64,000 nt of DNA from Acidobacteriota bacterium (GCA_032124015.1 JAQBEH010000049.1:12458-76457), one strand, 5' to 3'. Counted from the first letter of the stretch, positions 1 through 58,343 are shown. Notes: generated from the sequence alone by a model not told the origin. Made by a program: numbers and translations.

Positions 1-639
1 GGCGGGAAGCGCCGCGCGAAGGGGACCGAGCCCTCCCACCTTCGCCACGGCGATCGGGAGGAGCAGGAGGAACCCGCCGAACATGAAGGCGAACTGCAAC
101 CCCTTCGTCTGGACCACCGACCGGAAACCGCGCGCGCCGATGTAGAGCACGCAGAATGCGGCGCACAGGATCACGGCGGCGGCCTGCGGCAGCCCCGTCG
201 CGCGCCGCAACAAGACGCCGAGCATGAGCAAATACGGCGCGGGGAGGGACAAGGCGAGGACCGTGACCGCCCCGAGGACCCCCGCGGTCCGCCCGTAGGT
301 GTCGTAGAGGATGTCGGGGAGCGTCGCGTTCCCCCTCGCGCGGGCGCGCTCCGCGTAGAGCAGCGCGAAGAGGAAGGTCCCGACGTAGTAGGGGACGCCC
401 AGGACGAGCCAGTTCGACAGGCCGTGAACGTAGGAATACTCTCCGACCCCTAAGACGCCTCCGTACCAGGTCGAAACGAGTGTGACGACGAAGGCGGGGA
501 GCGTGAGCGCGCGCCCGGCTAAAAGGAAGTCTTCCTCGTCTTGCGGCCGGCTCCGGGACGAGCGCACGCCGAGCAGGAACGTCGCGGCGAGGTAGGCGCC
601 AACGACGGCGAGGTCGACCGCGCCCAGGCTGCCTGTCAT
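1..639 (-). CDS. sodium:solute symporter (SSF) family transporter, N-terminal 213 codons; gene runs off the left edge
   Basis: Absent from the ORF track because it is truncated. My reverse translation from the ATG (complement of 637..639) gives MTGSLGAVDLAVVGAYLAATFLLGVRSSRSRPQDEEDFLLAGRALTLPAFVVTLVSTWYGG..., a multi-TM pattern typical of SSF carriers. It starts 11 nt after the stop of the upstream TonB-dependent receptor gene, so it is probably in the same operon. Confidence 0.7.
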   Translation of the reverse strand, partial: MTGSLGAVDLAVVGAYLAATFLLGVRSSRSRPQDEEDFLLAGRALTLPAFVVTLVSTWYGGVLGVGEYSYVHGLSNWLVLGVPYYVGTFLFALLYAERARARGNATLPDILYDTYGRTAGVLGAVTVLALSLPAPYLLMLGVLLRRATGLPQAAAVILCAAFCVLYIGARGFRSVVQTKGLQFAFMFGGFLLLLPIAVAKVGGLGPLRAALPA

Positions 640-650
640 GTGCGCCTGCT

Positions 651-2837
651 CTAAAACCCGAAGCTCAAACCCAGCATCACGCTGCGCGTGGCCGCCGGGT
701 AGAACTCCGAATAGAACTCCGTGTACGCCGCGTCGGTCGGGTACGAGTAGCCGAACTGCGCGACCTGGGCATCGAGCAGGTTCTCGATGCGGAGCCTCAG
801 GGTGAGCGATCCGGTCTTGAGGCGCGCGGGTCGCGAGAGGTCGGCGACGATCTGCGCCCCGACCGTTGTGAACGGGTCGATCTGCTTGTTGACGTAGCCG
901 GGCACCGAGCGATTGGCCGGCGTCTTGGCCTCGTTCTCGCTGTTGTCGGTGTAGATCGTCCCGATCCGTCGTCCCGACAACTCGATCCTAACGGGGCCCC
1001 ACGTCCGCGCCACCGCCAGCCGCGCGGTGCTCCCGGGGAAGAGCGCGATGCGGTTGCCGGAGTAGTCGATGACGTAATACCCCGAGGCGCCATCGGGAGA
1101 CAGGATGGTGTCTTGTTCGAGGACGTCGCGGCTGACCGCGAGATAGCCCGAGAGGTCGACCTCGCCCGGCAGGCGGCCCGCTCCTTCGATCTCGATCCCC
1201 TCGTGCAGCGATTGGCCCGCGTTCGTCGTGATCGGGATGCCGTCGGCGTCCAAGCCCCCCGCGTAGACGAACTCGTCGCGGAACTGCATCCGGTAGACGT
1301 TCATCTTGACTCGCGTGGCGCCGTACACGTAGCCAGCGCCCACTTCGAAGCTCGTCAGGCGTTCCGGCGCGGCGTATGGGCCGCTGTAGCGGACCTTCGA
1401 GGGGTCGTAACTCGCAAAGTGGTCGGCGGGATCGGATGAATCCTCGGGGTTGAAGACGTTGTTGAACGTCGGTTCGCTTTCGGTTCGGGTCGCCTGGGCG
1501 TAGAGATTCCATCGGTCGTCGATGTTCCAATTCACGCCGATCCGGGGCGACAGGAACTGGTACGTCGCATCCCAGGAGATGCCTTGCACCTCGTCGTCGC
1601 CCATCGAGAATTCATGGCGGGTCGCCTGCAGCTCGAGGTTCAAGGTGGTATTCGGCGCGACGCGAAGCTCCTCGCGGACGAAGAGGTTCACGGTGTCCTT
1701 CTTGTTGGTGTAGTCGTACAGGACCGACGGGTCGCCGGACGGTGAGCTCGCCACGGTTCCATCGTGCCGGCCACGATGAAACAGGAGCTCGAGCCCCGCG
1801 CTCAGCTCGCCTCGATCGTGGCTCCAAGCGACGCGGGGGATCCATCCCACCTGTTCGTTGTCGAGGTCCCGCTGTTGCCATGCGTTGTCGACGTACTGCC
1901 GGAAGTATCCGTTCCCGAGGATGGCGTACACCGTGTTTTTGAGCATCAGGCCCGGCCCGATGCGGCGGTCGTTCATCACCTGAAGCTGAGGCTGGAAGAA
2001 GTTGTCGGTTTCTCCCGGCACGAGCGGGGCGATGCTGCGCCGCGCGACCGGGTCGGCCAGGTCCTGGTAGGGCACGCCGTAGTAGGCGAGCTGGGTTTCT
2101 TCGGGTCCGCCGAAGAGCAAGATGCGCCACACGGACGTGGGGTCGAATCGCTCGAAGCCGATCTGCGCGAACGTCTGCTTGGACCACGAGGGCGTTCTGT
2201 ACCCTTGGCTTTCGACCCTCGCGGCTCGAACCGAATAGGCCCAGGGACTTTTCCCGATCGCACCTCCGTAACTGAACGAGAGCCGGCCGGTTCCAAACGA
2301 CCCGACCGTCATGTCGAGGTTGCCCCCGGCGGTCGTCGGCAAGCTGGCCGTTTCGAGATTGACGACCCCGCCAACGGCCGGAGATCCGTACAGGGCTGTG
2401 CCCGGGCCGCGCTGGATCTGGATCAGGCTGAGGCCGGTTGCGAAGTCTCCGAGGTTGATCGTGTAGACCTGGTGCGATTCGGGGGTGTTCAGCGGGACGC
2501 CGTTGACGTTGACCGCGATGCGCGCTTGGTCGAAACCTCGAATGCGAAGGTAGCTGTAGCCGTAGCCGTTGCCGGAATCGCTGTAGGCGTAGGCGTTCAT
2601 CGTCTCGCCCAGGAGCGTCGACAGGTCCTGGCCGACGTTTTTGTCGCGGATCGCATCCTGGTCCAGATCGGTGAACGAGGCCGGATCCCTGCGGTCCTTC
2701 GCGACGTCGGACGAGACGACCACGTCCTCCTCGACACCGGAGGGGATAGGCTTTTCGTCCTCGTCAGCCGGAAACACCGTCGTCGCGGCGATCAGGGCGC
2801 CGGTTGCGAGCAAGGCGAAGGCAGCACGACGAAGCAA
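651..2837 (-). CDS. TonB-dependent outer-membrane receptor (candidate thiamine/thiamine-precursor receptor)
   Basis: 728-aa ORF with signal peptide MLRRAAFALLATGALIAATTVFPA. Plug-domain motifs (YLRIRGFDQARIAVNVNGVPLN, RGPGTALYGSPAVGGVVN) and a beta-barrel ending in the terminal aromatic ...GLSFGF. TTG start preceded by a GGGGAGG SD. A TPP riboswitch lies directly upstream. Confidence 0.9.
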   Translation of the reverse strand: MLRRAAFALLATGALIAATTVFPADEDEKPIPSGVEEDVVVSSDVAKDRRDPASFTDLDQDAIRDKNVGQDLSTLLGETMNAYAYSDSGNGYGYSYLRIRGFDQARIAVNVNGVPLNTPESHQVYTINLGDFATGLSLIQIQRGPGTALYGSPAVGGVVNLETASLPTTAGGNLDMTVGSFGTGRLSFSYGGAIGKSPWAYSVRAARVESQGYRTPSWSKQTFAQIGFERFDPTSVWRILLFGGPEETQLAYYGVPYQDLADPVARRSIAPLVPGETDNFFQPQLQVMNDRRIGPGLMLKNTVYAILGNGYFRQYVDNAWQQRDLDNEQVGWIPRVAWSHDRGELSAGLELLFHRGRHDGTVASSPSGDPSVLYDYTNKKDTVNLFVREELRVAPNTTLNLELQATRHEFSMGDDEVQGISWDATYQFLSPRIGVNWNIDDRWNLYAQATRTESEPTFNNVFNPEDSSDPADHFASYDPSKVRYSGPYAAPERLTSFEVGAGYVYGATRVKMNVYRMQFRDEFVYAGGLDADGIPITTNAGQSLHEGIEIEGAGRLPGEVDLSGYLAVSRDVLEQDTILSPDGASGYYVIDYSGNRIALFPGSTARLAVARTWGPVRIELSGRRIGTIYTDNSENEAKTPANRSVPGYVNKQIDPFTTVGAQIVADLSRPARLKTGSLTLRLRIENLLDAQVAQFGYSYPTDAAYTEFYSEFYPAATRSVMLGLSFGF

Positions 2838-2910
2838 GCCGGCCTCCCCGAGGATCCTCTGGAGTCCCTTACCTGCGGTAGGACGGATGAACGGAGGAGA
2901 GCTTCGTGCA

Positions 2911-2998
2911 TCGTCCCGTTTCCCTACGCTGGCATGACCCAGTTCAGGTTCCAGGGTTTGATCTCAGTCCGGCTCTCGCCGGACACCCCTAACGGACA
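2911..2998 (-). promoter_or_regulatory. TPP (THI-box) riboswitch
   Basis: The minus-strand RNA reads GUCCGUU-AGGGGUGUCCGGCGAGAGCCGGACUGAGAUCAAACCCUGGAACCUGAACUGGGUCAUGCCAGCGUAGGGAA-ACGGGAC. This matches the conserved THI-element blocks GGGGUG, CUGAGA, ACCC, GAACCUGA.CUGG.UAAUGCCAGCGUAGGGAA. The P1 helix is GUCCGUU/AACGGGAC. It sits about 75 nt upstream of the receptor start. Confidence 0.9.
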
Positions 2999-3005
2999 CC
3001 TCAAC

Positions 3006-3035
3006 ACCGTACGCCACGGTCTTGCGGCCCGTCAA
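3006..3035 (-). promoter_or_regulatory. sigma70-like promoter candidate for the riboswitch operon
   Basis: Minus strand: TTGACG (complement of 3030..3035), 18-nt spacer, TACGGT (complement of 3006..3011). This places the transcription start right at the 5' edge of the riboswitch P1 helix. Confidence 0.35.
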
Positions 3036-3046
3036 GGCGATGCCGA

Positions 3047-3076
3047 TTGACCCATGAGGGGGCGGACGGCTATATT
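3047..3076 (+). promoter_or_regulatory. sigma70-like promoter candidate for tRNA-Cys
   Basis: TTGACC (3047..3052), 18-nt spacer, TATATT (3071..3076). It lies about 45 nt upstream of the tRNA 5' end. Confidence 0.35.
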
Positions 3077-3123
3077 CGCGGCTCGTCCGGTCCGGGAAGA
3101 GTCGTTCCCACCAAATGGACGAC

Positions 3124-3198
3124 GGCGGCGTAGCCAAGTGGTAAGGCAACGGTCTGCAAAACCGTCATTCACCGGTTCAAATCCGGTCGCCGCCTCCA
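3124..3198 (+). tRNA. tRNA-Cys (anticodon GCA), CCA encoded
   Basis: Hand-folded cloverleaf. Acceptor GGCGGCG/CGCCGCC; D arm GCC-AAGUGGUAA-GGC; anticodon stem ACGGU/ACCGU with loop CUGCAAA; variable loop CAUUC; T arm ACCGG-UUCAAAU-CCGGU. The discriminator is U73, the Cys identity element, followed by CCA. Confidence 0.92.
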
Positions 3199-3234
3199 AC
3201 GTCGCCACGCGCAGAGACGCACGGAACTGAGTTG

Positions 3235-4335
3235 ATGTTCGATCGGAAGTCGAAAGCGCCCGCCGTGCCGACGCTTCTGGATCGCGTCGTGAAATCCGGC
3301 GCGCAACGGGTCGCGATCCTGGGTCTCCACGCTCAGGCCGGCACGAGAACCGTCCTGGCGTCGCTCGTCCGCGAGCTCCACGCCCGCTCGTTGGCCGTCG
3401 CGTTGACCTCCGCACCGCGGCTGCCGCTGGAGCAGGAGGAGGGCGCCGACCCCCACCCTGTCACCCACACCGTCGTTCCCGAGGGTGCCTGGATCGCCAC
3501 CGCGGCGCCTCCTCCGGTCGAAGGCGCCGTTGCCAAGCTCGAGCTCATCGAGACGACCGAATGGATCACAACCCTTGGCCCCGTGAGCATCTACCGCGTT
3601 CTCAGCGGCGGCAAAGCCGACCTCCATGGACCGGGGGAACCCGATTCGATGAAGGCGGTGTTGCAACGTCTCGGCGTGCTATCGGGGGGGCTCGTCCTGG
3701 TCGACGGCGGTTGGGAGCGACGTTCGTTTGCGGCGCCCGGGGTCAGCGAAGGCGTGGTCATCGTCCTCGCCGCGGGGTACTCGGCGACACCCGACCGTTC
3801 CGCCGCGGCCGCCCGATATCTCGTCGAGACCCTCTGTGTGCCGCCGTGCGACGAGGCCGCCCGCGACGCGTGGGACGAGACGGCGTCGAAGGGGGCTGCC
3901 GCACTGCTGGACGCCCGCGGGCGGCCGGTGGGGGTGATGCCTCCCGGGCTGGACGACCCGGTCCCTGCATTGAAGACGCAAGAGGGAGGACCGGTCTCGA
4001 CGGTCGTTCTCCCATTCGGGCTCCACGACGAGTTCATGATTCCGCTGGTGCGCTCTCCTTTGCGCTGCACGTTGGTGGTGCGGGATGCGACGCGCATCAA
4101 CGTGGCTCCGGTTTATTACAAGGCGTGGCTCAAAGGCCGGGGCCGGATCCAGGTTGTGAGACCGCTTCGCCTGATCGCCACCGCAACCAACCCCTGGAAT
4201 CCCGCCGGTCCCGACGCGGACCCCGCGGAGTTTCGCCGCGCCGTGGCGACGGCGCTCCCCGACGTGCCCGTTCACGACGTCGTGATCGAGTCCGGGGGAG
4301 ACCATGGCAAGCCAATGTGGAAGTTCTGGGACTGA
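3235..4335 (+). CDS. hypothetical protein with degenerate P-loop-like N-terminus
   Basis: 367-aa ORF; a TTG at 3232 is immediately followed by ATG at 3235. The composition looks like real coding sequence. The N-terminus VAILGLHAQAGTRTVLASL resembles a Walker-A strand-loop-helix but lacks the Lys. I recognise no family with certainty. Confidence 0.55.
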   Translation: MFDRKSKAPAVPTLLDRVVKSGAQRVAILGLHAQAGTRTVLASLVRELHARSLAVALTSAPRLPLEQEEGADPHPVTHTVVPEGAWIATAAPPPVEGAVAKLELIETTEWITTLGPVSIYRVLSGGKADLHGPGEPDSMKAVLQRLGVLSGGLVLVDGGWERRSFAAPGVSEGVVIVLAAGYSATPDRSAAAARYLVETLCVPPCDEAARDAWDETASKGAAALLDARGRPVGVMPPGLDDPVPALKTQEGGPVSTVVLPFGLHDEFMIPLVRSPLRCTLVVRDATRINVAPVYYKAWLKGRGRIQVVRPLRLIATATNPWNPAGPDADPAEFRRAVATALPDVPVHDVVIESGGDHGKPMWKFWD

Positions 4336-48985: not shown

Positions 48986-49026
48986 CCGGACGTCGAAAAG
49001 GGGAGTGTCCCCTTTTCGACATCCGG
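48986..49026 (+). terminator. long perfect hairpin after the DsbA-like gene
   Basis: CCGGA-c-GTCGAAAAGGGGA-gtg-TCCCCTTTTCGAC-a-TCCGG, giving a 13-bp perfect core stem. It begins 11 nt after the stop codon. Confidence 0.6.
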
Positions 49027-49059
49027 TACCGGGACGCTCCCGGCTAGAATGCTCGGCTG

Positions 49060-50526
49060 ATGTCCTCACGCCTACGAATCCTCATCCTCAGCGCCGAAGT
49101 CGCCCCGTTCGCCAAGACGGGAGGCCTGGGGGATGTGGCGGGAGCGCTCCCCAAAGCGCTCGCAAGCCTCGGCCACGACGTGCGCGTGGTCATGCCCGCG
49201 TATCAGGCGCAAGAGCGAGCGGTGCGAGCCGGGGAGGGCGGATTCGCCCCGCTTCCCGGCACGTTGACGGTCCCCACGGGTGGGGGGCCGATTGAGGCCG
49301 GAGTCATCCAGACGGTGCTTCCCGGGAGCGACGTTCCCGTCTACCTCATCGCGGAGCGCAGCCTCTTCGACCGGCCGAACATCTACGGCTACGACGACGA
49401 TCCGTACCGGTTTGCCTTCTTCTCGCGCGCCGCGCTCGAGCTCACGGCTGCTTTGGGCTTTCGTCCCGACGTCGTGCACGCGCACGACTGGCACTCCGCG
49501 CCCGCGGTGATGTGGCTCGACACCGCGGGGCGCGTCGACGGCCGGTTCGGCGATGTCGCGACGGTGTTCACGATCCACAACCTCGCGCATCAGGGGCGCA
49601 GTTCGCGGCGCGTTGCGCGCTACCTCGGCGTCGACGTCCCGCCGCTGCTCGACGAGAGCGGTTGGGACGAGGTCAACTTCATGGCGCGGGGGATCGCTCA
49701 CGCGACGCTGGTTTCCACCGTCAGTCCGACCTACGTGCGCGAGATCATGACGCCTCAAGGCGGCAACGGCCTCGACCCGCTCCTTCGCGCCCGGCAACAC
49801 GACGTCCACGGCGTCCTGAACGGCCTCGACTACGACGTCTGGAATCCGGCGACCGACCCGAGCCTCGTCCTCGATTTCGACGCGGCGCGGCCCGATCGGC
49901 GCGTGGCGAACAAGCTGGCGCTGCAGGATCGATTGGGACTGCAGCGAGACGCGAGGGTTCCGCTGGTCGGGATGGTCACGCGGCTCGACGCGCAAAAGGG
50001 AATGGAGATCACGGGGCACGTGATCCACCTCCTGATGAGCGGCCTGGCAGGCGAGGCGCAGTTTGTCGTGTTGGGGACCGGGGCCAAGCGGTACGAGGAT
50101 GCCTTCGCGCACCTGGCCGGCTACCACCCCCGCAAGATGGCCGCGGTATTGGCCTTCTCCTCGGATCTGGCGCCGCAAATCTACGCCGGGAGCGATCTGT
50201 TCCTGATGCCGTCCCTGTTCGAGCCGTGCGGATTGGGGCAGCTCATCGCCATGCGCTACGGCAGCGTGCCGGTCGTGCGCAGCACGGGAGGTTTGGCCGA
50301 CACCGTAGGGGACGGGCACACCGGATTCACCTTTCACGAGTTCACGGCCGATGCGTTTTGGATGGCCCTGCAGCGCGCGCTTCTCGTGCACAACACGGAC
50401 GCGGAGGCGTGGGCGAGGCTGCAACGCAACGGGATGGCGGCCAACTTCTCGTGGGCCGACGCGGCCTACGGTTACGAGCAGCTTTACGAGCGGGCGATCT
50501 CCCGCACGCGAACGGCCCGCGGATGA
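49060..50526 (+). CDS. glgA: glycogen (starch) synthase, GT5
   Basis: RILILSAEVAPFAKTGGLGDVAGALPKAL (KTGGL motif), with PSLFEPCGLGQL near the C-terminus. Confidence 0.95.
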   Translation: MSSRLRILILSAEVAPFAKTGGLGDVAGALPKALASLGHDVRVVMPAYQAQERAVRAGEGGFAPLPGTLTVPTGGGPIEAGVIQTVLPGSDVPVYLIAERSLFDRPNIYGYDDDPYRFAFFSRAALELTAALGFRPDVVHAHDWHSAPAVMWLDTAGRVDGRFGDVATVFTIHNLAHQGRSSRRVARYLGVDVPPLLDESGWDEVNFMARGIAHATLVSTVSPTYVREIMTPQGGNGLDPLLRARQHDVHGVLNGLDYDVWNPATDPSLVLDFDAARPDRRVANKLALQDRLGLQRDARVPLVGMVTRLDAQKGMEITGHVIHLLMSGLAGEAQFVVLGTGAKRYEDAFAHLAGYHPRKMAAVLAFSSDLAPQIYAGSDLFLMPSLFEPCGLGQLIAMRYGSVPVVRSTGGLADTVGDGHTGFTFHEFTADAFWMALQRALLVHNTDAEAWARLQRNGMAANFSWADAAYGYEQLYERAISRTRTARG

Positions 50527-52631
50527 AGGCGCCGATCCGGTTGGCTCTGATCTGGCATTTCCATCAGCCCGACTACACCGACCCCGAGACGTCCGCACCC
50601 ATCATGCCCTGGACGCGTCTCCATGCGCTCAAGGATTACGCCGACATGGCCGCGTTCCTCGCGCGTCATCCGACGATACGCGCCACCTTCAACGTCGTGC
50701 CGACGCTTCTCGATCAGATGCAAGCGCTCGCCTCGGGGGGACTGCGTCCGGATCCGTTTCTGGCCCTCGCGCTGAAAGATCCTGCCGAACTCACCTTCGA
50801 GGAGCGGGCCTTCGTCATCGGTCACTTCTTCTCGTTGAATCGCGACATGATGGCGGTGGGCCTCAAGCGATTGAACGAACTGCATGCCCTGCGTGGCGAC
50901 GAGCCGGCCGCAGCGATCGGAAAGGTCGTGGTTGATCGCTTCGACGACCAGGCGCTTTGCGACCTCCAGGTGCTGTTCCACCTCGCCTGGAGCGGGCCGC
51001 TATTGCAGGCCGACCCTTTGATCGCGGGCCTTCGCGCGAAGGGGCGAGGCTACACTGCAGACGACAAGCAAGCGCTTTTTACGCGCCACGGGGAGTTTCT
51101 CGCCGACGTCATCCCGCGGTGGCGGCGGCTCTACGATGCCGAGCAGATCGAGCTGTCGGTCACGCCTTACTACCACCCGATTCTGCCCCTCCTGTGCGAC
51201 CTGAATTCGGCGCTCGAGGCCCTTCCCGACCTGCGTCTCCCGGCGGCCCGATTCCAGGGTGTGGAGGATGCCGATCTACAGCTCGTGAAGGGGATGGAGG
51301 CGTTCCATGCGACCTTCGGCCGGAAGGCCGCGGGCGGATGGCCGTCGGAAGGCGCGATCTCCGAGCGGTCGCTCGAACGGATGGGTGCTGCGGGGTATCG
51401 CTGGGCCGCGAGCGACGAGGACGTTCTCTTCGCGTCGATTGGCGAGGTCCTCCCGGCCGAACAGACCGCTAGGGAAGCACGGCGGGCCGAGTTGCTCTAC
51501 CGTCCGTGGCGCTACAGCGACGGCCCCGTGCTCTTGTTCCGGGACCACGATCTTTCCGACCGGATCGGATTCGCCTACGCCACGCGCGCTCCGGAAGACG
51601 CGGCGCGCGATTTCCTCTCGCGTTTGTTGCATCTGCGCGCGCTACTCCCCGACGACGACACGCCCTACGTCGTCAGCGTGATCCTGGACGGCGAGAACGC
51701 GTGGGAGCACTACCCGGAGCACGCCGCGCCGTTTTTCGATGCGCTCTACGGCGCGCTCGCCGCCGAGTCCGGTATCGAAACCGTCACCGCGTCGGAGGCG
51801 GCGAGGGCGGACAGCGCGCGGCCCCTTCCCCGCGTTGTCGCCGGATCGTGGATCTATCGCAACCTCGCGACCTGGGTCGGGCATCCCGAAAAAAACCGTG
51901 CATGGGAATTGCTGGCCGCGGCCCGCGAGGCGATCGTAAGAGCCGCGGGAGCACCGCGATGGGACGACCCGGCGTGGCGCATGATCTTGGCGGCCGAGGG
52001 GAGCGATTGGTTCTGGTGGTACGGCGACGATCACCCGACCGAGTACGGCGCGGAATTCGACGCGGGATTTCGCGACAAGCTGCGGGGGGCCTATGCCGCG
52101 GCCGGGTTGCCCGTGCCGTCCGTGCTCGACGAGCCGATCCGCAAAACCCAGGTTCGAGGCCAGATGCCGCCTTCGGGGCCGGTGCATGCCCGGATCGACG
52201 GGCGCGTCGGCGACTACTTCGAATGGCGCACCGCGGGGCACGTGACGTGCATCTACGGCGCGATGCACGCCGCGGTCCGCTTCGCGCGAGAGCTGTTTTT
52301 CGGCACCGACGGGACGGCGCTTTTCGTGAGGCTCGATCCGTTCGAGCCGGGGGCGCTGGACGGCACGACGATCGTGTTGCGAACGCCGGCGGCAGACGCG
52401 GCTGCTCTCCAGTCCAAGGCCGGCGAATCTTCGGGGGATCTGATCACCGCGCTCGACCGCGTGGTCGAACTGTCCGTGCCGTTCGATCGTCTCGCCGAAG
52501 CAGGAGCGCCCGCGCGTTTCGCGATCGAGATCAGAAACGCGGACGGCGCCACGCAGCGGATCCCGGGAGACGGCTTCGTCGAGTTGGCGCGGCCGGATGA
52601 CGACCCGTCCCGTTACGATTGGTTTGTCTGA
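50523..52631 (+). CDS. glycoside hydrolase family 57 protein (alpha-glucan branching/processing enzyme)
   Basis: Start at MKAPIRLALIWHFHQPDY (overlaps the glgA stop, ATGA). GH57 regions: HQP.Y, GQIELSVTPYYHPILPLL, WPSEGAISE, ILDGENAWEHY. Confidence 0.9.
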   Translation: MKAPIRLALIWHFHQPDYTDPETSAPIMPWTRLHALKDYADMAAFLARHPTIRATFNVVPTLLDQMQALASGGLRPDPFLALALKDPAELTFEERAFVIGHFFSLNRDMMAVGLKRLNELHALRGDEPAAAIGKVVVDRFDDQALCDLQVLFHLAWSGPLLQADPLIAGLRAKGRGYTADDKQALFTRHGEFLADVIPRWRRLYDAEQIELSVTPYYHPILPLLCDLNSALEALPDLRLPAARFQGVEDADLQLVKGMEAFHATFGRKAAGGWPSEGAISERSLERMGAAGYRWAASDEDVLFASIGEVLPAEQTAREARRAELLYRPWRYSDGPVLLFRDHDLSDRIGFAYATRAPEDAARDFLSRLLHLRALLPDDDTPYVVSVILDGENAWEHYPEHAAPFFDALYGALAAESGIETVTASEAARADSARPLPRVVAGSWIYRNLATWVGHPEKNRAWELLAAAREAIVRAAGAPRWDDPAWRMILAAEGSDWFWWYGDDHPTEYGAEFDAGFRDKLRGAYAAAGLPVPSVLDEPIRKTQVRGQMPPSGPVHARIDGRVGDYFEWRTAGHVTCIYGAMHAAVRFARELFFGTDGTALFVRLDPFEPGALDGTTIVLRTPAADAAALQSKAGESSGDLITALDRVVELSVPFDRLAEAGAPARFAIEIRNADGATQRIPGDGFVELARPDDDPSRYDWFV

Positions 52632-52668
52632 CCCGTCGTCTAGAATGGGCGCTTTCCAAGGAGTGACG

Positions 52669-53694
52669 ATGAAGACGGTAGGCATCTTGACCGGCGGCGG
52701 GGACGCGCCGGGGTTGAACGCGGTGATTCGAGCGATCGTCAGACGCTCGCTCCCGCGCGGGTACCGGATGGTCGGCATCCGTCACGGCTGGCGAGGCCTG
52801 CTGGAAAAAGAAACCGTCGAACTCGACGCGCAGGCGGCCTCCGGGATCCTCCATCGCGGAGGGACGATTCTGGGCACCTCGCGCACGAATCCGTACAAGA
52901 CGGTCGAGGACGCCCGCGCGGCCGAGGCGAACTTCACCGCGTTGGGACTCGACGCGTTGATCGCCATCGGTGGCGAGGACACGTTAGGCGTCGCGGCGAA
53001 ACTGTCGGCGGCGGGTTTTCCTGTCGTGGGTGTCCCGAAGACGATCGACAACGACCTGTCCGGCACCGACACTACGTTCGGCTTCAACACCGCGGTCGCG
53101 ATTGCCACCGAGGCGATCGACCGGCTTCACTCGACCGCCGAGTCTCACGACCGCGTCATCGTCTGCGAGGTGATGGGCCGCCACGCGGGATGGATCGCGC
53201 TGCACTCCGGGATGGCCGGCGGGGCCGATTTCATCCTGATCCCCGAGCGCCCGATCGACATCGAGGCGGTCTGCGCGGCCGTTTTACGCCGGCGCGCCCG
53301 CGGGATCCACTTCTCGATCATCGTCGCGGCCGAGGGGGCGATCCTCCCCGAGGGTGAGATCAAAAAAAAGACCGAGACCGACGCGTTCGGCCACGTCTTG
53401 CTCGGCGGCATCGGAGAACGGCTCGCAAAAGAGATCGAAAAGCGCACGGGGAGCGAGACGCGCTCGGTTCAGCTCGGGCACGTCCAACGCGGCGGCACGC
53501 CGACCGCATTCGACCGCTGGCTCGGCTCCCGCTACGGTCTGCTTGCGGCCGACATGGTGCACGACGGACGTTTCGGCATGATGGCCGCGTATTGCGGGGG
53601 CGTTTTCATGCCCGTGCCGCTGGCGTCGGCGGTCGCGTCGTTGAAGACGGTGCCTCCTGAGCTCATCGATCTGGCCTCCGCACTGTTCGCGTAA
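52669..53694 (+). CDS. pfk: 6-phosphofructokinase (GGEDT / PKTIDND type; ATP versus PPi specificity not decidable by eye)
   Basis: MKTVGILTGGGDAPGLNAVIRA, IGGEDTLG, PKTIDNDL, MGRHAGWIAL. An AAGGAG SD sits upstream. Confidence 0.95.
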   Translation: MKTVGILTGGGDAPGLNAVIRAIVRRSLPRGYRMVGIRHGWRGLLEKETVELDAQAASGILHRGGTILGTSRTNPYKTVEDARAAEANFTALGLDALIAIGGEDTLGVAAKLSAAGFPVVGVPKTIDNDLSGTDTTFGFNTAVAIATEAIDRLHSTAESHDRVIVCEVMGRHAGWIALHSGMAGGADFILIPERPIDIEAVCAAVLRRRARGIHFSIIVAAEGAILPEGEIKKKTETDAFGHVLLGGIGERLAKEIEKRTGSETRSVQLGHVQRGGTPTAFDRWLGSRYGLLAADMVHDGRFGMMAAYCGGVFMPVPLASAVASLKTVPPELIDLASALFA

Positions 53695-53735
53695 CGCGCG
53701 CGGCAGGTACCGCCGGCCCGCGGGAAGGGAATGAG

Positions 53736-54767
53736 ATGTCCGAGCTTCGTCACGATCCGCTCTCGAAACGCTGGGTGATCATCGCCAACGAGAGGAGCCG
53801 CCGCCCCGAAGACTTCGCTGATGGCTGGGAGGCGCGGCGCGAGGGCGGGTTCTGCCCGTTTTGTCCCGGCAGCGAGGACAAGACCCCCGGCGAGATCGCC
53901 GCGGTAAGGCCCGGCGGCGGGGGGGCGAACGGCCCCGGCTGGGACGTGCGGGTCATCCCGAACAAGTACCCGGCGCTGTCCATCGAGGGGACGCTCGACC
54001 GTCAGGGGGTCGGCCTCTACGACCGGATGCGCGGTGTCGGAGCGCACGAGGTCGTGATCGAATCGCCCCTCCACGACCTGCATATGGGGGACATGGAGCC
54101 CGGCGCCCTAACCACCGTGCTCGCCCTCTGCCAGGACCGCATGCGCGACCTCGGCCGGGACCCGCGGTTCAAGTACGTGCTCCTGTTCAAAAACCACGGC
54201 GCCGCCGCCGGGGCCACGCTGAGCCACCCGCACCTGCAGCTCATCGCGACGCCGGTGACCCCGCGCGCCATCTCGGTCGAGCTGGATTCCGCTCGCGAGC
54301 ATTTTCACCTGAAGGAGCGCTGCATCTTCTGCGACATGCTCGAGCAGGAGCTCCAATCGCGCGATCGCATCGTGGCGTTGGACGAGCACTTCGCCGTCGT
54401 CGCCCCCTACGCGTCCCGCTTCCCTTTCGAGCTGATGATCCTCCCGCGCCGGCACAACCATGCGTTCACCGACGAGTCGCGCCTGACCCTGGCGGCGCTC
54501 GCGCGAACGCTGAAAGAAACGCTCGCCCGGTTGAAGAGCGTCCTGCGCGATCCGCCCTACAATTTCGTGCTGCACTCGAGCCCGAACACCGAGTTACTGG
54601 TGCGCCGCCGCCACTACTGGGACACCCTGCCGTTCGATTTCCACTGGCACATCGAGATTCTCCCCCGCCTTACCCGCGTCGCGGGGTTCGAGTGGGGGAC
54701 CGGGTTCTACATCAACCCGACCGCACCGGAAGAAGCGGCGACGTTCCTGCGTGACGCGGTGATCTAG
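53736..54767 (+). CDS. galT: galactose-1-phosphate uridylyltransferase family (GalT-type HIT nucleotidyltransferase; possibly a sugar-nucleotide phosphorylase)
   Basis: MSELRHDPLSKRWVIIANERSRRP, zinc site CPFCPG, active site SHPHLQLIA (HxHxQ). Confidence 0.85.
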   Translation: MSELRHDPLSKRWVIIANERSRRPEDFADGWEARREGGFCPFCPGSEDKTPGEIAAVRPGGGGANGPGWDVRVIPNKYPALSIEGTLDRQGVGLYDRMRGVGAHEVVIESPLHDLHMGDMEPGALTTVLALCQDRMRDLGRDPRFKYVLLFKNHGAAAGATLSHPHLQLIATPVTPRAISVELDSAREHFHLKERCIFCDMLEQELQSRDRIVALDEHFAVVAPYASRFPFELMILPRRHNHAFTDESRLTLAALARTLKETLARLKSVLRDPPYNFVLHSSPNTELLVRRRHYWDTLPFDFHWHIEILPRLTRVAGFEWGTGFYINPTAPEEAATFLRDAVI

Positions 54768-54818
54768 GGACCAATTCGGGAGCGTCTCGGACTCGAGGCG
54801 CGACCCAACCGCGGGTAC

Positions 54819-54844
54819 AATTCCAGCGGGTCTTCCGCGGAATT
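54819..54844 (+). other. hairpin between galT-like and kinase genes (possible attenuator/terminator)
   Basis: AATTCC-a-GCGG-gtctt-CCGC-GGAATT, flanked by further partial complementarity (GCGGGTAC...GTAGCCCGC). Confidence 0.3.
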
Positions 54845-54872
54845 CCTCGCCGTAGCCCGCTGGTGCCGGACG

Positions 54873-56702
54873 ATGCGAAGGAGGGCGATGGGGGCAATCA
54901 CGCACAAGGACCAGCGAAGCAAGTTCGACGCGTTCTTCCCGGGGCGGGCGGACGAATTCTTGCGCATGCTCGGCGCCTGGTCGATCCCGTTCGCCCTATT
55001 GGACGCCGATGACGCGGTGCTCTTTTGGAACCTGGGCGCCGTCAAGTTCTACGGCCTCGGCGAGGAGGAGGCCCTCGGAAAGAAGTTCGCCGAGCTCGTA
55101 GCCGAGGAAGCGACGATCCCCGAAGCTCCGCTCGGTGGAGTCAGGACCCGGCGTTACGAAGCGCTGCATCAAAGTGCGGACGGCATCGAGCTTCCCGTCA
55201 TGGTCACGCGCACCGATCTCCCGGCAAGCGACGGGAGGGAGGGGGCGTTCGTCCTCATCACCGACCTGACGGAGTCCAAGTCGCTCGAACGGCGGCTGGC
55301 GCGTCGTGTCGCGCAACTGTCGATCATCCGCGAGATCGGCGAGTGCCTGCAATCGGCGATGAGTCCCGAGCGGATCCTGCACACCATTCTGGTCGGCGCG
55401 ACGGCCAGCATGGGCCTGCGGTTTAACCGCGCCTTCTTGCTCTTGGTCGACGAGCGCCACGGCGTGCTTCGCGGACGCGACGCCATCGGCCCCGCGGACA
55501 CGGAGGAGGCGCAGAGAATCTGGTCCCGCCTCTCCACGGGCGGAAAGACGCTGCGCGATCTCGTGGATGACTACGAGCCGCTCATCGACGGGGAGGAGCC
55601 GCGCGTTCTCGAGATCGCACGCCTGCTCTCCGCCAAGCTCGATGACGAGACCTCCTTCGTCGTCGCCGCGCTGAACGCGACGGCGACGACGCGCGTGGTC
55701 GACGGGCACGTGGTCTCGGGCGACGCACCGTCCCCTTATCGAATCATCGGCATATTGGGCATCGACGCCTTCGTGGCGGTGCCGCTGACGACCGATGGAA
55801 AGCCGGTGGGCCTGCTTCTCGCGGACAATGCGATCACGCGCCGCGCGATCACCGACGAAGACGTGGACATCCTGGAACTGCTCGGCCTGCAGGCCGGCCA
55901 AGCGTTGGCGCGGGCGCATCTGACCGAAGAGCTGGCCCGCCAGGTCGCCTCGCTCGAGGCGGCAACGAGAGAACTGAGACGCAACCAGGAGAGGGTGGTG
56001 CGATCGGAGCGCTTGAGCGCCATCGGCGAGATGGCCGCCCGCGTGGCGCACGAAATCCGGAATCCGCTCGTCGCGATCGGCGGCTTCGCCCGCTCGCTCC
56101 TGCTTCGTCCCGAAGAACAAGATTCAGCGACAAGGGAGGCGCTGGAGATCATCGTGAACGAGGTGCGGCGGCTCGAGACCATCGTCAAGGAGGTTCTCGA
56201 GTTCTCCCGTCCGGCGCCGCCCAAGATCGGATCGGTACCCTTGAGGCGGCTCGCCCAGGAGGCGCTCGACCTGCTGGCGTGGGAGCTCGATCACGTGGGG
56301 GTCGTCGGACGGGTCGAAGAGGCGCCCGGCACGCCCGAAGCCGCCGCCGACAGCGACCAGATTTTCCACGCGGTCATCAATCTGCTGCGAAACGCGGTGC
56401 ACGCGATGCCGCATGGGGGCGAGCTCCTCGTCCGCCTGCGCGGCGTTCCCTACGGTGTCGAAATGGCGATCGTGGACACCGGCGTCGGCATGTCGGAAGA
56501 TGTCCTCGCACGTGCTCAGGAGGCGTTTTACACAACGAAACCAAACGGATCCGGCCTCGGCCTGACCATCGCGTCGCTCATCGCGCGCGATCACAACGGC
56601 GAGGTCCGGATCGAGAGCCGGGAAGGGGAGGGCACGACGGTCACGCTGCGTCTCCCCGCGGCGACGGAGGGTGAGACCGATGCCCAAGATCCTGATCATT
56701 GA
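54873..56702 (+). CDS. PAS-GAF sensor histidine kinase
   Basis: N-terminal PAS-like region and a central GAF-like region. H-box MAARVAHEIRNPL, N-box LLRNAVHAM, G-boxes DTGVGM and GSGLGL. Confidence 0.85.
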   Translation: MRRRAMGAITHKDQRSKFDAFFPGRADEFLRMLGAWSIPFALLDADDAVLFWNLGAVKFYGLGEEEALGKKFAELVAEEATIPEAPLGGVRTRRYEALHQSADGIELPVMVTRTDLPASDGREGAFVLITDLTESKSLERRLARRVAQLSIIREIGECLQSAMSPERILHTILVGATASMGLRFNRAFLLLVDERHGVLRGRDAIGPADTEEAQRIWSRLSTGGKTLRDLVDDYEPLIDGEEPRVLEIARLLSAKLDDETSFVVAALNATATTRVVDGHVVSGDAPSPYRIIGILGIDAFVAVPLTTDGKPVGLLLADNAITRRAITDEDVDILELLGLQAGQALARAHLTEELARQVASLEAATRELRRNQERVVRSERLSAIGEMAARVAHEIRNPLVAIGGFARSLLLRPEEQDSATREALEIIVNEVRRLETIVKEVLEFSRPAPPKIGSVPLRRLAQEALDLLAWELDHVGVVGRVEEAPGTPEAAADSDQIFHAVINLLRNAVHAMPHGGELLVRLRGVPYGVEMAIVDTGVGMSEDVLARAQEAFYTTKPNGSGLGLTIASLIARDHNGEVRIESREGEGTTVTLRLPAATEGETDAQDPDH

Positions 56703-57045
56703 AGACGAGAAAAACCTTCGCATACTCTACCAACAAGACTTCGAGCGCGACGGCTTCGAGGTGGTCACGGCGGCGACCGCCGCGGAGGGGCTGGCGATGG
56801 TTCAGGACGAAGCGCCCGACCTCGTCGTCATGGACATCCGCCTTCCGGGGATGGATGGGCTCGAGGCGATGAGCCGTCTTCTCGACAAGAACCCGAAGAT
56901 CCCGGTCGTCCTGAATTCAGCCTACTCGTCCTACAAGGACAGTTTCATGAGCTGGTCGGCGGACGCTTACGTCGTGAAGTCGGCCGACACCGGCGAGCTG
57001 CGCGCGCGGGTGCGAGAGCTGATCGCCTCCCGCGCGGACAGCTGA
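56680..57045 (+). CDS. single-domain (CheY-like) response regulator
   Basis: MPKILIIEDE...DLVVMDIRLPGMDGLE...PVVLNSAYS...YVVKS has the canonical DD/D/S/K receiver residues and no output domain. It overlaps the kinase 3' end by 23 nt, and its stop overlaps the glgC start (TGATG). Confidence 0.85.
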   Translation: MPKILIIEDEKNLRILYQQDFERDGFEVVTAATAAEGLAMVQDEAPDLVVMDIRLPGMDGLEAMSRLLDKNPKIPVVLNSAYSSYKDSFMSWSADAYVVKSADTGELRARVRELIASRADS

Positions 57046-58289
57046 TGGTCGATCGCCGCCGGACCCTGTTGGGCGACACGCTGGCGATCGTCATGGCCGG
57101 CGGTCAGGGGGAACGCCTCTACCCCCTGACGCGGGATCGCGGGAAGCCCGCCGTCCCGTTCGGGGGCATCTACCGGGTGATCGACTTCACCCTGTCGAAC
57201 TGCCTTAACTCGGGGCTGCGAAAGATCTACGTCCTCACCCAATACAAGTCCGGAAGCCTGGAGCGCCACGTTCGGATCGGCTGGGGACCGCTGTTCAACC
57301 ACGAGCTCGACGAGTGGATCCAGTGCGTCCCGCCGCAGCTGCGCGTGGGCGAGCGCTGGTACCTGGGGACCGCCGATGCGGTCTACCAAAACGTGTACCT
57401 TTTGGAGCGGGAGCGTCCTCGCTACGTCGTCGTCCTTTCGGGCGATCACATCTACAAGATGGACTACGCGCGACTGATCGCGCGCCACGAAGCCAACGAC
57501 GCGATCGTAACGGTCGCGGCGGTCGAGGTCCCGATCGCGGAGGCTTCGGCGGTCGGAGTGATTGCGGTGGACGAGGAGTCGCGCATCACCGCGTTTCAGG
57601 AAAAGCCGAAAGATCCCATTCCCCTTCCGGGGCGTCCCGGCACCGTGCTCGCCAACATGGGCGTCTACGTTTTCGACACCGAAACGCTCGTGCGGGCGCT
57701 CGCCGTCGATGCGCGCCGCGAGTCGCGCCACGACTTCGGTTACAACATCCTTCCCGCCCTCGTCGATACGAAGAAGGTGTTCGCCTACTCGTTCATCGAC
57801 GAAAACAAGAAAGAAACGGCCTACTGGCGCGACGTCGGCACCCTGGATTCGTACTACGACGCCAGCATGGATCTGGTCGCCGTCGAGCCCGTCTTCAACC
57901 TGTACGACAAGAACTGGCCGATCCGGACGATGGCCCAACAACTGCCCCCCGCCAAGACGGTCTTCGCGCAGGAAGAGCCCGGCGGACGTCTGGGGATCGT
58001 CCTCGACTCGCTCGTCAGCGGCGGCGCGATCGTCAGCGGCGGCCGTGTCGAGCGCTGCGTCCTCGGGCCCGAGGTTCGCGTCAATTCGTACGCCAAGGTC
58101 GTCGACAGCGTGCTGATGGACAATGTCGACATCGGGCGTCACGCGCGCGTCACGAAGGCGATCATCGACAAGGGCGTCCGCATTCCCGCGAGCTTCGTCG
58201 TCGGCGAAGATCCCGAAGAAGACAAGCGGCGGTTCACGGTCACCCCGGGTGGCGTCGTCGTCATCCCTCGTGGGACACAGTTGGACTAG
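57045..58289 (+). CDS. glgC: glucose-1-phosphate adenylyltransferase
   Basis: LAIVMAGGQGERLYPLTRDRGKPAVPFGGIYRVIDFTLSNCLNSG and LTQYKSGSL, with a left-handed beta-helix C-terminus. Confidence 0.95.
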   Translation: MVDRRRTLLGDTLAIVMAGGQGERLYPLTRDRGKPAVPFGGIYRVIDFTLSNCLNSGLRKIYVLTQYKSGSLERHVRIGWGPLFNHELDEWIQCVPPQLRVGERWYLGTADAVYQNVYLLERERPRYVVVLSGDHIYKMDYARLIARHEANDAIVTVAAVEVPIAEASAVGVIAVDEESRITAFQEKPKDPIPLPGRPGTVLANMGVYVFDTETLVRALAVDARRESRHDFGYNILPALVDTKKVFAYSFIDENKKETAYWRDVGTLDSYYDASMDLVAVEPVFNLYDKNWPIRTMAQQLPPAKTVFAQEEPGGRLGIVLDSLVSGGAIVSGGRVERCVLGPEVRVNSYAKVVDSVLMDNVDIGRHARVTKAIIDKGVRIPASFVVGEDPEEDKRRFTVTPGGVVVIPRGTQLD

Positions 58290-58343
58290 CGGCCGGTCTG
58301 CTAACATTCCCGCCCTTTCCACGATGAACTCCAGGAGGCTCCC

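What the first reader, a model, noticed from the sequence alone, without database searches (positions are those of the whole stretch)
1..3035. TPP riboswitch controlling a TonB-dependent receptor + SSF transporter operon (two-membrane thiamine-related uptake route)
**What the sequence shows.**
- A near-consensus THI element lies on the minus strand at 2911..2998: GGGGUG...CUGAGA...ACCCUGGAACCUGAACUGGGUCAUGCCAGCGUAGGGAA, closed by a P1 helix.
- A TTGACG/TACGGT promoter candidate precedes it.
- It is followed by the TonB-dependent receptor gene (651..2837) and, 11 nt later, by an SSF-family inner-membrane carrier (1..639, truncated).
- A CUCCUCC tract in the leader could pair with the GGGGAGG SD of the receptor, which would allow translational control.

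**What I recall from earlier work.** From memory, comparative genomics of THI elements predicted both THI-regulated TonB-dependent receptors and an SSF-family candidate (ThiV). Experimentally characterised examples are few, and I know of none from this kind of GC-rich, Acidobacteria-like lineage.

**What is open.** The substrate (thiamine, HMP, thiazole or a phosphate ester) is unknown.
Basis: partly seen in the sequence, partly recalled or inferred. Interest (0 to 1): 0.55.

Follow-up and report, generated by a model that had tools for sequence, protein, structure and literature searches.

The report
Vitamin B1 riboswitch controlling uptake operon
A genuine thiamine-pyrophosphate riboswitch sits in front of an outer-membrane receptor gene and an inner-membrane symporter gene in an Acidobacteriota genome, most likely shutting off vitamin B1 uptake when the cell has enough; both parts were already predicted in other bacteria, so this is a new member of a known system.

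Summary
Rfam's TPP model (RF00059) matches window 3000..2904 (-) at 65.5 bits, above the curated cut-off of 54.3. The four aptamer helices covary across 28 related sequences. A TTGACG-N18-TACGGT promoter precedes the element; its -35 box is invariant in 13 relatives. A TonB-dependent receptor gene (2837..651) follows, and 11 nt later a sodium:solute symporter gene (639..1, cut by the window edge; 465 aa in sister contigs).

Across 80 related receptor loci from at least seven phyla, all 78 with an intact 5' side carry a TPP element in front of the operon. In five loci a thiamine pyrophosphokinase gene follows the receptor gene, in three of them lying between it and the symporter gene. This points to thiamine itself as the cargo.

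The symporter is PanF-like, which fits Rodionov's predicted "ThiV, SSS family". It is not related to the SAR11 HMP transporter that is also called ThiV.

There is no intrinsic terminator. Pyrimidine tracts can pair with the ribosome-binding site, so translational repression is the likeliest mechanism. However, this pairing is no better than the leader's composition gives by chance.

Verdict: an ordinary, well-supported new member of a known kind (Omr1/OMthi plus ThiV under a TPP riboswitch). Interest is modest.

The parts
3030..3035 (-). -35 box TTGACG of the operon promoter
   Evidence: Read from the sequence. Invariant in the window and all 12 aligned relatives.
3006..3011 (-). -10 box TACGGT, 18 nt after the -35 box. 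The inferred transcription start is near 3000, at the 5' edge of the aptamer.
   Evidence: TACGGT, TAACGT, TAGGCT or TACCGT in relatives. The transcription start is inferred, not mapped.
2904..3000 (-). TPP riboswitch aptamer (THI element). P1 is CCGUU 2995..2991 with AACGG 2920..2916. The CUGAGA and ACCUGA...GCGUAGGGAA motifs are present. The variable P3a stem is absent.
   Evidence: Rfam RF00059 at 65.5 bits against a cut-off of 54.3. Across 28 sequences, 93.7% of cells are paired and 13 pairs show compensatory changes; slid controls give 37-60%.
2838..2915 (-). Expression platform. It holds the conserved hairpin H1 (GGACGAUG 2916..2909 with CAUCCGUCC 2889..2881, sharing 1-4 nt with P1), pyrimidine tract 1 (CUCCUCC 2899..2893), tract 2 (GUCCUACC, from 2884), and the SD GGGGAGG 2849..2843.
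   Evidence: H1 is in the RNAalifold consensus of 7 relatives. Folds are, and duplex energies. No terminator-like site was found. The switching scheme is inferred.
651..2837 (-). TonB-dependent outer-membrane receptor gene (728 aa, TTG start). It has a signal-peptide-like N-terminus, a TonB-box-like EDVVVSS, a plug, a beta-barrel and a C-terminal Phe.
   Evidence: Pfam PF07715 and PF00593, translation, conserved residues. Exactly the same protein occurs on 7 other contigs.
1..639 (-). 5' part (213 codons) of the sodium:solute symporter gene. The ATG lies 11 nt after the receptor stop codon. The full product is 465 aa.
   Evidence: Pfam PF00474. Full length is taken from L001:9035-10432. The nearest curated family is PanF, far below its cut-off (70 bits against 328).

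Best explanation
This is a TPP-sensing riboswitch in the 5' leader of a two-gene (possibly three-gene) operon of an Acidobacteriota bacterium related to Polarisedimenticolaceae.

Transcription starts from a TTGACG/TACGGT promoter right at the aptamer. The operon encodes an Omr1/OMthi-like TonB-dependent receptor, which would carry thiamine across the outer membrane. It also encodes a PanF-like Na+/solute symporter ('ThiV' in Rodionov's sense), which would carry it across the inner membrane.

When cellular TPP is high, TPP locks the aptamer and its P1 helix. This weakens the adjoining hairpin H1 and lets pyrimidine tracts of the leader pair with the GGGGAGG ribosome-binding site and the TTG start codon. 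The receptor is then not translated, and the closely following symporter gene is down-regulated with it.

Shown: the aptamer, the operon, the conservation, and the linkage to thiamine pyrophosphokinase in relatives.
Inferred: TPP binding itself, the OFF direction, the translational level, and thiamine as cargo.
For: Aptamer:
- RF00059 scores 65.5 bits against a cut-off of 54.3.
- Covariation supports P1, P2, P3 and P4/P5.

Operon:
- The receptor has Plug and barrel domains, and the SSF gene starts 11 nt downstream.
- No terminator-like site lies in 2700..3300.

Promoter:
- It is conserved in 13 of 13 aligned sequences.

Conservation of the regulatory link:
- All 78 related receptor loci with an intact 5' side have a TPP-like element in front of the operon (nhmmer). 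The other 2 of the 80 are cut at a contig end.
- 31 of 32 loci scanned with Rfam pass the curated threshold.
- The phyla include Acidobacteriota, Eisenbacteria, Latescibacterota, Zixibacteria, Ignavibacteria, Caldithrix and Caldisericaceae.
- The SSF orthologue sits in the same riboswitch-led operon in about 45 loci, either after or before the receptor gene.

Cargo:
- In L032, L036, L056, L081 and L082 a thiamine pyrophosphokinase gene directly follows the receptor gene. In L056, L081 and L082 the SSF gene follows the kinase gene.
- Pfam confirmed PF04263 and PF04265 in the L032 and L056 proteins.
- This parallels the Bacteroides OMthi-PnuT-TPK operon, where deletion of the transporters raises the thiamine requirement (PMC5613172).

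Mechanism:
- A good SD precedes the start codon in all relatives.
- The SD is predicted to be paired in the aptamer-constrained ensemble (unpaired probability 0.06 in the window).
- Tract 1 pairs with the SD and start codon at -15.9 kcal/mol.
- H1 is conserved and overlaps P1.
Against: - Thermodynamic folding predicts the SD to be paired whether or not P1 is allowed, so no clear ON state emerges.
- Leader-to-RBS complementarity is not better than for shuffled leaders (z from -2.2 to +1.3).
- The best anti-SD tract differs among close relatives: tract 1 in the window, L009 and L047, but tract 2 in L007 and L011.
- In the window itself P1 and H1 share only 1-4 nt.
- No thiamine kinase or pyrophosphokinase gene is linked in this organism's locus, and none was seen in the 64-kb window. 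The thiamine assignment therefore rests on relatives whose receptors are only about 28-35% identical.
- Orthology of the receptor to the genetically tested BT2390 could not be tested.
Confidence: 0.72

Rival explanations
1. The riboswitch and operon are the same, but the cargo is not intact thiamine. It would be a precursor or derivative instead: HMP, a thiazole, a degradation product such as FAMP, or a phosphate ester.
For: - The best-studied bacterial SSS carrier under a TPP riboswitch, SAR11 ThiV, is assigned to HMP and not thiamine (PMC11452348).
- The specificity of omr1 is called 'unclear' in recent marine work (PMC12442306).
- No kinase gene is linked in the window's own locus.
Against: - The window's symporter is unrelated to SAR11 ThiV beyond family level (E = 0.02) and is closer to PanF (E = 1e-14).
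- Orthologous receptor and symporter genes flank a thiamine pyrophosphokinase gene with a B1-binding domain in related operons. That enzyme uses thiamine, not HMP.
- Rodionov's subsystem lists ThiV (SSS) and Omr1 under thiamine uptake.
Confidence: 0.22
2. The riboswitch acts mainly on transcript elongation or stability rather than by occluding the ribosome-binding site. Possible routes are Rho-dependent termination within the leader or early coding region, or RNase attack.
For: - The folding analysis gives no clear SD-open against SD-closed switch.
- The leader is C-rich and about 80 nt long between P1 and the start codon, which would suit Rho loading.
- In B. uniformis the OMthi riboswitch lowers mRNA levels.
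Against: - No intrinsic terminator is present.
- In the relative L008 the start codon directly follows P1 with no platform. This only makes sense for direct translational occlusion.
- A strong SD lies close to pyrimidine tracts in all relatives.
- The two mechanisms are not mutually exclusive, because loss of translation often triggers Rho.
Confidence: 0.3
3. The receptor is an iron-siderophore receptor, as automatic annotation says, and the symporter is a proline or pantothenate carrier. The upstream TPP-like element would be incidental or decayed.
For: - JGI names the homologues 'iron complex outermembrane receptor protein'.
- The best NCBIfam hits are siderophore, heme and B12 receptor models and PanF/PutP.
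Against: - All those NCBIfam hits are far below their curated cut-offs (for example 94 bits against 223, and 70 against 328).
- The TPP element is retained in 78 of 78 evaluable loci across phyla at 28-83% protein identity. It has compensatory changes and full-length above-threshold Rfam scores.
Confidence: 0.02

Closest known systems
Bacteroides OMthi (BT2390) - PnuT - TPK (Tnr3) thiamine uptake genes under TPP riboswitches (Costliow & Degnan 2017, PMC5613172; bioRxiv 10.1101/867226)
   Same: - A TPP riboswitch precedes a TonB-dependent receptor gene that is paired with an inner-membrane carrier.
- In some relatives of the window's operon the same TPK gene is included.
- Control of the transport genes in B. 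thetaiotaomicron is translational.
   Different: - The inner-membrane carrier here is a 465-aa SSS-family symporter instead of the small PnuT.
- The host is a GC-rich Acidobacteriota bacterium.
- No TPK gene lies in this organism's operon.
- Sequence orthology of the receptor to BT2390 could not be tested.
Omr1 and ThiV as predicted by comparative genomics of THI elements (Rodionov et al. 2002, as cited in PMC2211319; SEED roles in the supplement of PMC6593275)
   Same: [quoted passage not shown] - The window's two genes fit both descriptions.
   Different: - Reference sequences for these roles were not available, so the match is by description only.
- In what I could read, the two roles are not described as one operon.
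- No paper in the library combines Acidobacteria, thiamine, TonB-dependent and riboswitch.
SAR11 ThiV / SSSP (SAR11_0811, Q4FMG0), an HMP symporter behind a TPP riboswitch (Carini 2014; PMC11452348)
   Same: An SSS-superfamily carrier under a TPP riboswitch, used for B1-related salvage.
   Different: - There is no meaningful sequence similarity to the window's symporter: BLASTP E = 0.02 over 35 residues and no phmmer hit, while E. coli PanF gives E = 1e-14.
- It has no outer-membrane partner.
- Its cargo is HMP.
E. coli thiM-type TPP riboswitch (translational OFF switch) and the btuB cobalamin riboswitch
   Same: - The aptamer is followed by an SD-sequestering platform and no terminator.
- In btuB, a vitamin-sensing riboswitch also controls a TonB-dependent vitamin receptor. 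This comparison comes from established knowledge and was not tested here.
   Different: - The platform sequence is unrelated.
- The anti-SD and anti-anti-SD elements are not unambiguously identifiable here.

Membership tests
TPP riboswitch (Rfam RF00059, THI element) | Covariance-model score at or above the curated gathering score over the full model | tested here: met
   65.5 bits against 54.3, E = 1.3e-10, model positions 1-105.
TPP riboswitch (Rfam RF00059, THI element) | Helices P1, P2, P3 and P4/P5 supported by compensatory changes; conserved CUGAGA and ACCUGA...CGUAGGGAA ligand-contact motifs | tested here: met
   In an alignment not fitted to the structure, 93.7% of cells are paired and 13 of 25 pairs show double changes. 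Slid controls give 37-60%. The motifs are invariant in 28 sequences.
TPP riboswitch (Rfam RF00059, THI element) | Binds TPP and changes expression of the downstream gene | not testable with these tools
   Needs in-line probing or ITC, and reporter assays.
TonB-dependent receptor | N-terminal plug domain and C-terminal 22-strand barrel domain | tested here: met
   PF07715 (E = 2e-13) and PF00593 (E = 5e-23).
TonB-dependent receptor | Signal peptide, TonB box near the mature N-terminus, C-terminal aromatic residue | tested here: met
   Read from the translation: LLRRAAFALLATGALIAATTVFPA, then EDVVVSS, and a final ...GLSFGF. V41 is invariant and the VVVSS stretch appears in the family consensus. 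These features were judged by eye; no dedicated predictor was run.
Omr1 / OMthi (thiamine-regulated outer-membrane receptor) | Receptor gene preceded by a TPP riboswitch, conserved across species | tested here: met
   78 of 78 evaluable loci. 31 of 32 loci pass at the Rfam threshold.
Omr1 / OMthi (thiamine-regulated outer-membrane receptor) | Sequence orthology to a reference member (for example B. thetaiotaomicron BT2390) | not testable with these tools
   No reference sequence was at hand. A search from a Bacteroidota/Ignavibacteria member returned only uncultured relatives. NCBIfam has no specific model.
Omr1 / OMthi (thiamine-regulated outer-membrane receptor) | Genomic linkage to thiamine-specific genes (PnuT, TPK) | tested here: inconclusive
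   TPK is linked in five distant relatives. It is not linked in the window's own operon or its close relatives.
ThiV in Rodionov's sense (predicted thiamin transporter, SSS family, PanF-like) | SSS-family carrier, closest to PanF, under a THI element | tested here: met
   PF00474. PanF is the best characterised relative. The gene sits in the riboswitch-led operon in about 45 loci. Orthology to the original ThiV sequences was not testable.
SAR11 ThiV / SSSP (HMP symporter clade) | Significant full-length sequence similarity to SAR11_0811 and the eukaryotic SSSP proteins | tested here: not met
   BLASTP E = 0.02 over a 35-residue stretch against Q4FMG0 and E = 0.002 against Phaeodactylum SSSP. 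phmmer gave no hit.
PanF (sodium/pantothenate symporter, TIGR02119) | Score at or above the equivalog cut-off | tested here: not met
   70.3 bits against a cut-off of 328.

The most novel reading that the evidence does not exclude
The PanF-like SSS carrier found here defines a so far uncharacterised clade of inner-membrane thiamine importers, distinct from the SAR11 'ThiV'. Together with an Omr1-type receptor, it would form the standard riboswitch-controlled, two-membrane vitamin B1 scavenging route of Acidobacteriota, Eisenbacteria, Latescibacterota, Zixibacteria, Caldithrix and relatives. It would take the place that PnuT holds in Bacteroidia. Its wide retention would mark many of these uncultured soil and sediment lineages as dependent on external B1.
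Probability: 0.45. Interest if true: 0.45.

Novelty: new member of a known kind. Interest (0 to 1): 0.3.

Why it matters
The finding gives a clean, conserved example of a riboswitch-controlled vitamin B1 uptake route across both membranes in Acidobacteriota. I found no paper describing one in this phylum.

Three practical points follow.
- The receptor family is currently auto-annotated as an 'iron complex receptor', and the symporter only as 'SSS family'. Both can be re-annotated as thiamine-related across several poorly known phyla.
- The name ThiV is used for two unrelated SSS clades, one PanF-like and one SSSP-like. This can mislead metagenomic B1 budgets.
- The TPK-containing variants give the first genomic argument for thiamine as the cargo of this receptor/symporter pair.

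None of this changes how such systems are thought to work.

Tried and rejected
1. ON/OFF modelling. I computed partition functions with P1 enforced or blocked for 11 orthologues and folded nascent transcripts. The SD is predicted to be paired in both states, and H1 forms in both, so the switch could not be resolved in silico.
2. Test of whether leader-to-RBS complementarity exceeds chance. RNAduplex against 300 shuffles per orthologue showed that it does not. I therefore do not treat the CUCCUCC:SD pairing as established.
3. Link to SAR11 ThiV. I took the sequence from the supplement of PMC11452348 and compared it. The result was negative.
4. Link of the receptor to Bacteroides OMthi. A search from the Bacteroidota-like member L058 returned only uncultured Ignavibacteria and Bacteroidota proteins, so this stays untested.
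5. First gene-calling attempts by longest ORF failed in these GC-rich loci because of antisense shadow ORFs. I replaced them with a GC3 filter and with plain ORFs for low-GC loci.
6. Downstream genes in loci that lack the symporter (superoxide dismutase-like, PFK-like, transposase-like, MsrA-like, sigma-factor-like, judged by eye from the translations) are unrelated to thiamine. In those lineages the receptor stands alone behind the riboswitch.
7. Search for thiamine genes in the window. The Pfam labels of called genes across about 7-64 kb showed none. This says nothing about the rest of the genome.
8. PDB sequence searches gave only generic relatives. For the receptor these were the colicin I receptor, heme receptors and the pesticin receptor; for the symporter, the choline and multivitamin SLC5 transporters.
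9. One Pfam call failed on wrong coordinates.
Full report

Yes. A scan of the whole window against Rfam gave two hits at or above curated thresholds. One is a tRNA. The other is the TPP riboswitch RF00059 at 3000..2904 on the minus strand: 65.5 bits against a cut-off of 54.3, E = 1.3e-10, covering the full model. The element has the CUGAGA and ACCUGA...GCGUAGGGAA motifs and a P1 helix (CCGUU 2995..2991 with AACGG 2920..2916). It lacks only the variable P3a stem.

Directly upstream on the same strand lie TTGACG (3035..3030) and, 18 nt later, TACGGT (3011..3006). The generic sigma-70 scan did not list this site because its -10 box is weak. It did list a TTGACC-N18-TATATT site on the opposite strand that serves the divergent tRNA-Cys gene. 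In an alignment of the window with 12 relatives the TTGACG box is invariant, and the -10 box is TACGGT or a TAnnnT variant. This is better evidence for a promoter than a consensus match.

Downstream, ORF 2837..651 encodes a 728-aa protein with Plug and TonB-dependent barrel domains. It has a signal-peptide-like N-terminus, a TonB-box-like EDVVVSS and a terminal Phe. Its TTG start is preceded by GGGGAGG. It aligns with ATG starts preceded by GGGAGG in L011 and L047.

Eleven nucleotides after the receptor stop codon an ATG opens a sodium:solute symporter gene that runs off the window.

**2. Recovering the rest, and identifying the organism**

Exactly the same receptor protein is encoded on seven other public contigs (three MAG assemblies and several sequencing runs). 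These contigs give the complete symporter of 465 aa, followed 22 nt later by an AlgH-like (DUF179) gene.

Homologues are named Candidatus Polarisedimenticolaceae or Acidobacteriota.

**3. Is the riboswitch-receptor link conserved?**

A profile search of one genome per species returned 80 loci encoding relatives of the receptor at 28-77% identity. They come from Acidobacteriota, Eisenbacteria, Latescibacterota, Zixibacteria, Ignavibacteria/Bacteroidota, Caldithrix and Caldisericaceae.
- Rfam found a TPP riboswitch above threshold just upstream in 17 of 17 close loci and in 14 of 15 distant loci.
- A sequence profile of the aptamer found it in 78 of 80 loci. The two exceptions are cut by a contig end inside the operon.
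- On a MAFFT alignment of 28 of these aptamers, made without reference to structure, the standard TPP fold has 93.7% of cells paired and 13 pairs with compensatory changes. Versions with slid partners give 37-60%.

The element is therefore a functional, selected TPP riboswitch, and the receptor family is a TPP-regulated family.

**4. Gene neighbourhoods**

| Lineage | Gene order |
|---|---|
| Polarisedimenticolia-type | tRNA-Cys (divergent) - [TPP] - receptor - symporter - DUF179 |
| Other Acidobacteriota, Zixibacteria | [TPP] - receptor - symporter |
| Eisenbacteria | [TPP] - symporter - receptor |
| Ignavibacteria | [TPP] - receptor alone |
| Latescibacterota (L032, L036) | [TPP] - receptor - kinase |
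| Caldithrix, Caldisericaceae (L056, L081, L082) | [TPP] - receptor - kinase - symporter |

The roughly 210-220-aa kinase-like gene was identified in the five loci by sequence similarity. In the two proteins scanned with Pfam (L032, L056) it has the thiamine pyrophosphokinase catalytic and vitamin-B1-binding domains.

This last arrangement is the counterpart of the Bacteroides OMthi-PnuT-TPK operon. There, loss of the transporters raises the thiamine requirement about ten-fold in a biosynthesis mutant (PMC5613172).

Because the kinase uses thiamine, the linkage argues that this receptor/symporter pair imports thiamine itself. The argument is indirect for the window's organism. Its operon has no kinase gene, and its receptor is only about 28-35% identical to those in the kinase-linked operons.

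**5. What is the symporter?**

It matches Pfam SSF. It also matches the NCBIfam PanF and PutP models, but far below their cut-offs (70 against 328 bits).

I compared it with sequences taken from the supplement of PMC11452348.

| Reference | Result |
|---|---|
| E. coli PanF | 25% identity, E = 1e-14 |
| SAR11 'ThiV' (SAR11_0811) | E = 0.02 over 35 residues |
| Eukaryotic SSSP proteins | E = 0.002 or weaker |

[quoted passage not shown] It is not the clade for which HMP uptake was measured in SAR11. The shared name hides two different carriers.

**6. How does the switch work?**

There is no terminator-like hairpin with a U-run. A strong SD lies 5-8 nt before the start codon in all relatives.

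The roughly 80-nt platform is pyrimidine-rich.
Its 5' flank can pair with the start codon (-15.9 kcal/mol). The minimum-free-energy fold contains this pairing.
- *Hairpin H1.* GGACGAUG (2916..2909) pairs with CAUCCGUCC (2889..2881). It follows P1 directly, is present in all seven close relatives, and shares 1-4 nt with P1. The overlap is four nucleotides in relatives whose P1 is 8-9 bp long.
- *Tract 2.* In L007 and L011 the strongest RBS partner is instead the 3' strand of H1 plus the following CCUCCC (-21 kcal/mol). This would give a classical three-element switch: the P1 3' strand acts as anti-anti-SD, the H1 3' strand as anti-SD, and the RBS as target.
- *L008.* There is no platform at all, and the ATG abuts P1. 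This is only compatible with direct translational occlusion.

Against this, equilibrium calculations predict the SD to be paired whether P1 is enforced or forbidden. H1 forms in nascent transcripts in both cases. Leader-to-RBS complementarity is no better than for shuffled leaders of the same composition.

I therefore rate translational repression by RBS occlusion as the most likely mechanism (about 0.55). A contribution from Rho or mRNA decay is possible. The precise helices remain unresolved.

For comparison, the transport riboswitches of B. thetaiotaomicron act on translation and those of B. uniformis act on mRNA level.

**7. Comparison with what is known**

TPP-regulated outer-membrane receptors (omr/Omr1, OMthi) and a TPP-regulated SSS carrier (ThiV) have been predicted since 2002. 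They are standard roles in B1 subsystem tables and marine metatranscriptomics. OMthi has genetic support in Bacteroides.

What I did not find described is the following:
- the two roles joined in one riboswitch-led operon;
- their presence in Acidobacteriota (no paper with the four search terms);
- the TPK-containing variants.

Curated protein-family libraries have no specific model for either protein. Public annotation calls the receptor an iron-complex receptor.

**8. Verdict**

The element is a member of RF00059. The receptor is a TonB-dependent receptor of the Omr1/OMthi functional kind. The symporter is an SSS carrier of the PanF-like 'ThiV' kind and is not the SAR11 kind.

Novelty: a new member of a known kind. 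The useful by-products are re-annotation across several phyla, the ambiguity of the name ThiV, and a genomic argument for thiamine as the cargo. Interest is about 0.3.

**9. Limits**
- The genome's thiamine biosynthesis status could not be checked, because only this 64-kb window and short sister contigs were available. No thiamine genes were seen in them.
- Orthology to BT2390 and to Rodionov's reference ThiV was not testable.
- Ligand binding, direction of regulation and cargo are all inferred.

Noticed in passing
window 3047..3076 (+) and 3124..3198 (+): A tRNA-Cys(GCA) gene with a good TTGACC-N18-TATATT promoter-like site is transcribed divergently from the riboswitch promoter. The two -35 boxes are only about 11 bp apart. 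The pairing of tRNA-Cys with the riboswitch is kept in L007-L015.
   Followed up: partly
L008:3913-4030: This relative (67% identical receptor) has no expression platform. The receptor's ATG directly follows the P1 3' strand (GGGAAACGGAACATG), so part of the aptamer would have to act as the ribosome-binding site.
   Followed up: partly
L042 and L048 (Ignavibacteria): Two receptor paralogues lie in tandem, with the TPP element between them. Only the second copy is riboswitch-led.
   Followed up: no
L001:10455-11021 (just beyond the window's left edge): An AlgH-like DUF179 gene follows the symporter gene by 22 nt on the same strand. It is syntenic in all Polarisedimenticolia-type loci but in no other lineage. 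Whether it belongs to the operon is open.
   Followed up: partly
L001:11182-12348: One assembly (GCA_032126555.1) carries a DDE_Tnp_1 transposase gene after the DUF179 gene. The otherwise identical contig L002 lacks it, so this is strain-level insertion-sequence variation.
   Followed up: no
window 3232..4335 (+): A 367-aa ORF without any Pfam match lies next to the tRNA-Cys gene. It is conserved in position in all close relatives (cluster 2), followed by a 670-aa Big_5/fn3 protein gene.
   Followed up: no
window about 49000..58300: A glycogen-type cluster holds genes for a GT5 glycogen synthase, GH57, PFK, a GalT-like protein and a GlgC-like nucleotidyltransferase. A histidine kinase/response regulator pair is inserted between them.
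   Followed up: no
literature (PMC11452348 against PMC2211319 and PMC6593275): The name 'ThiV' is applied to two SSS carriers that are unrelated at the sequence level: the PanF-like predicted thiamine transporter and the SAR11 SSSP-like HMP transporter.
   Followed up: yes
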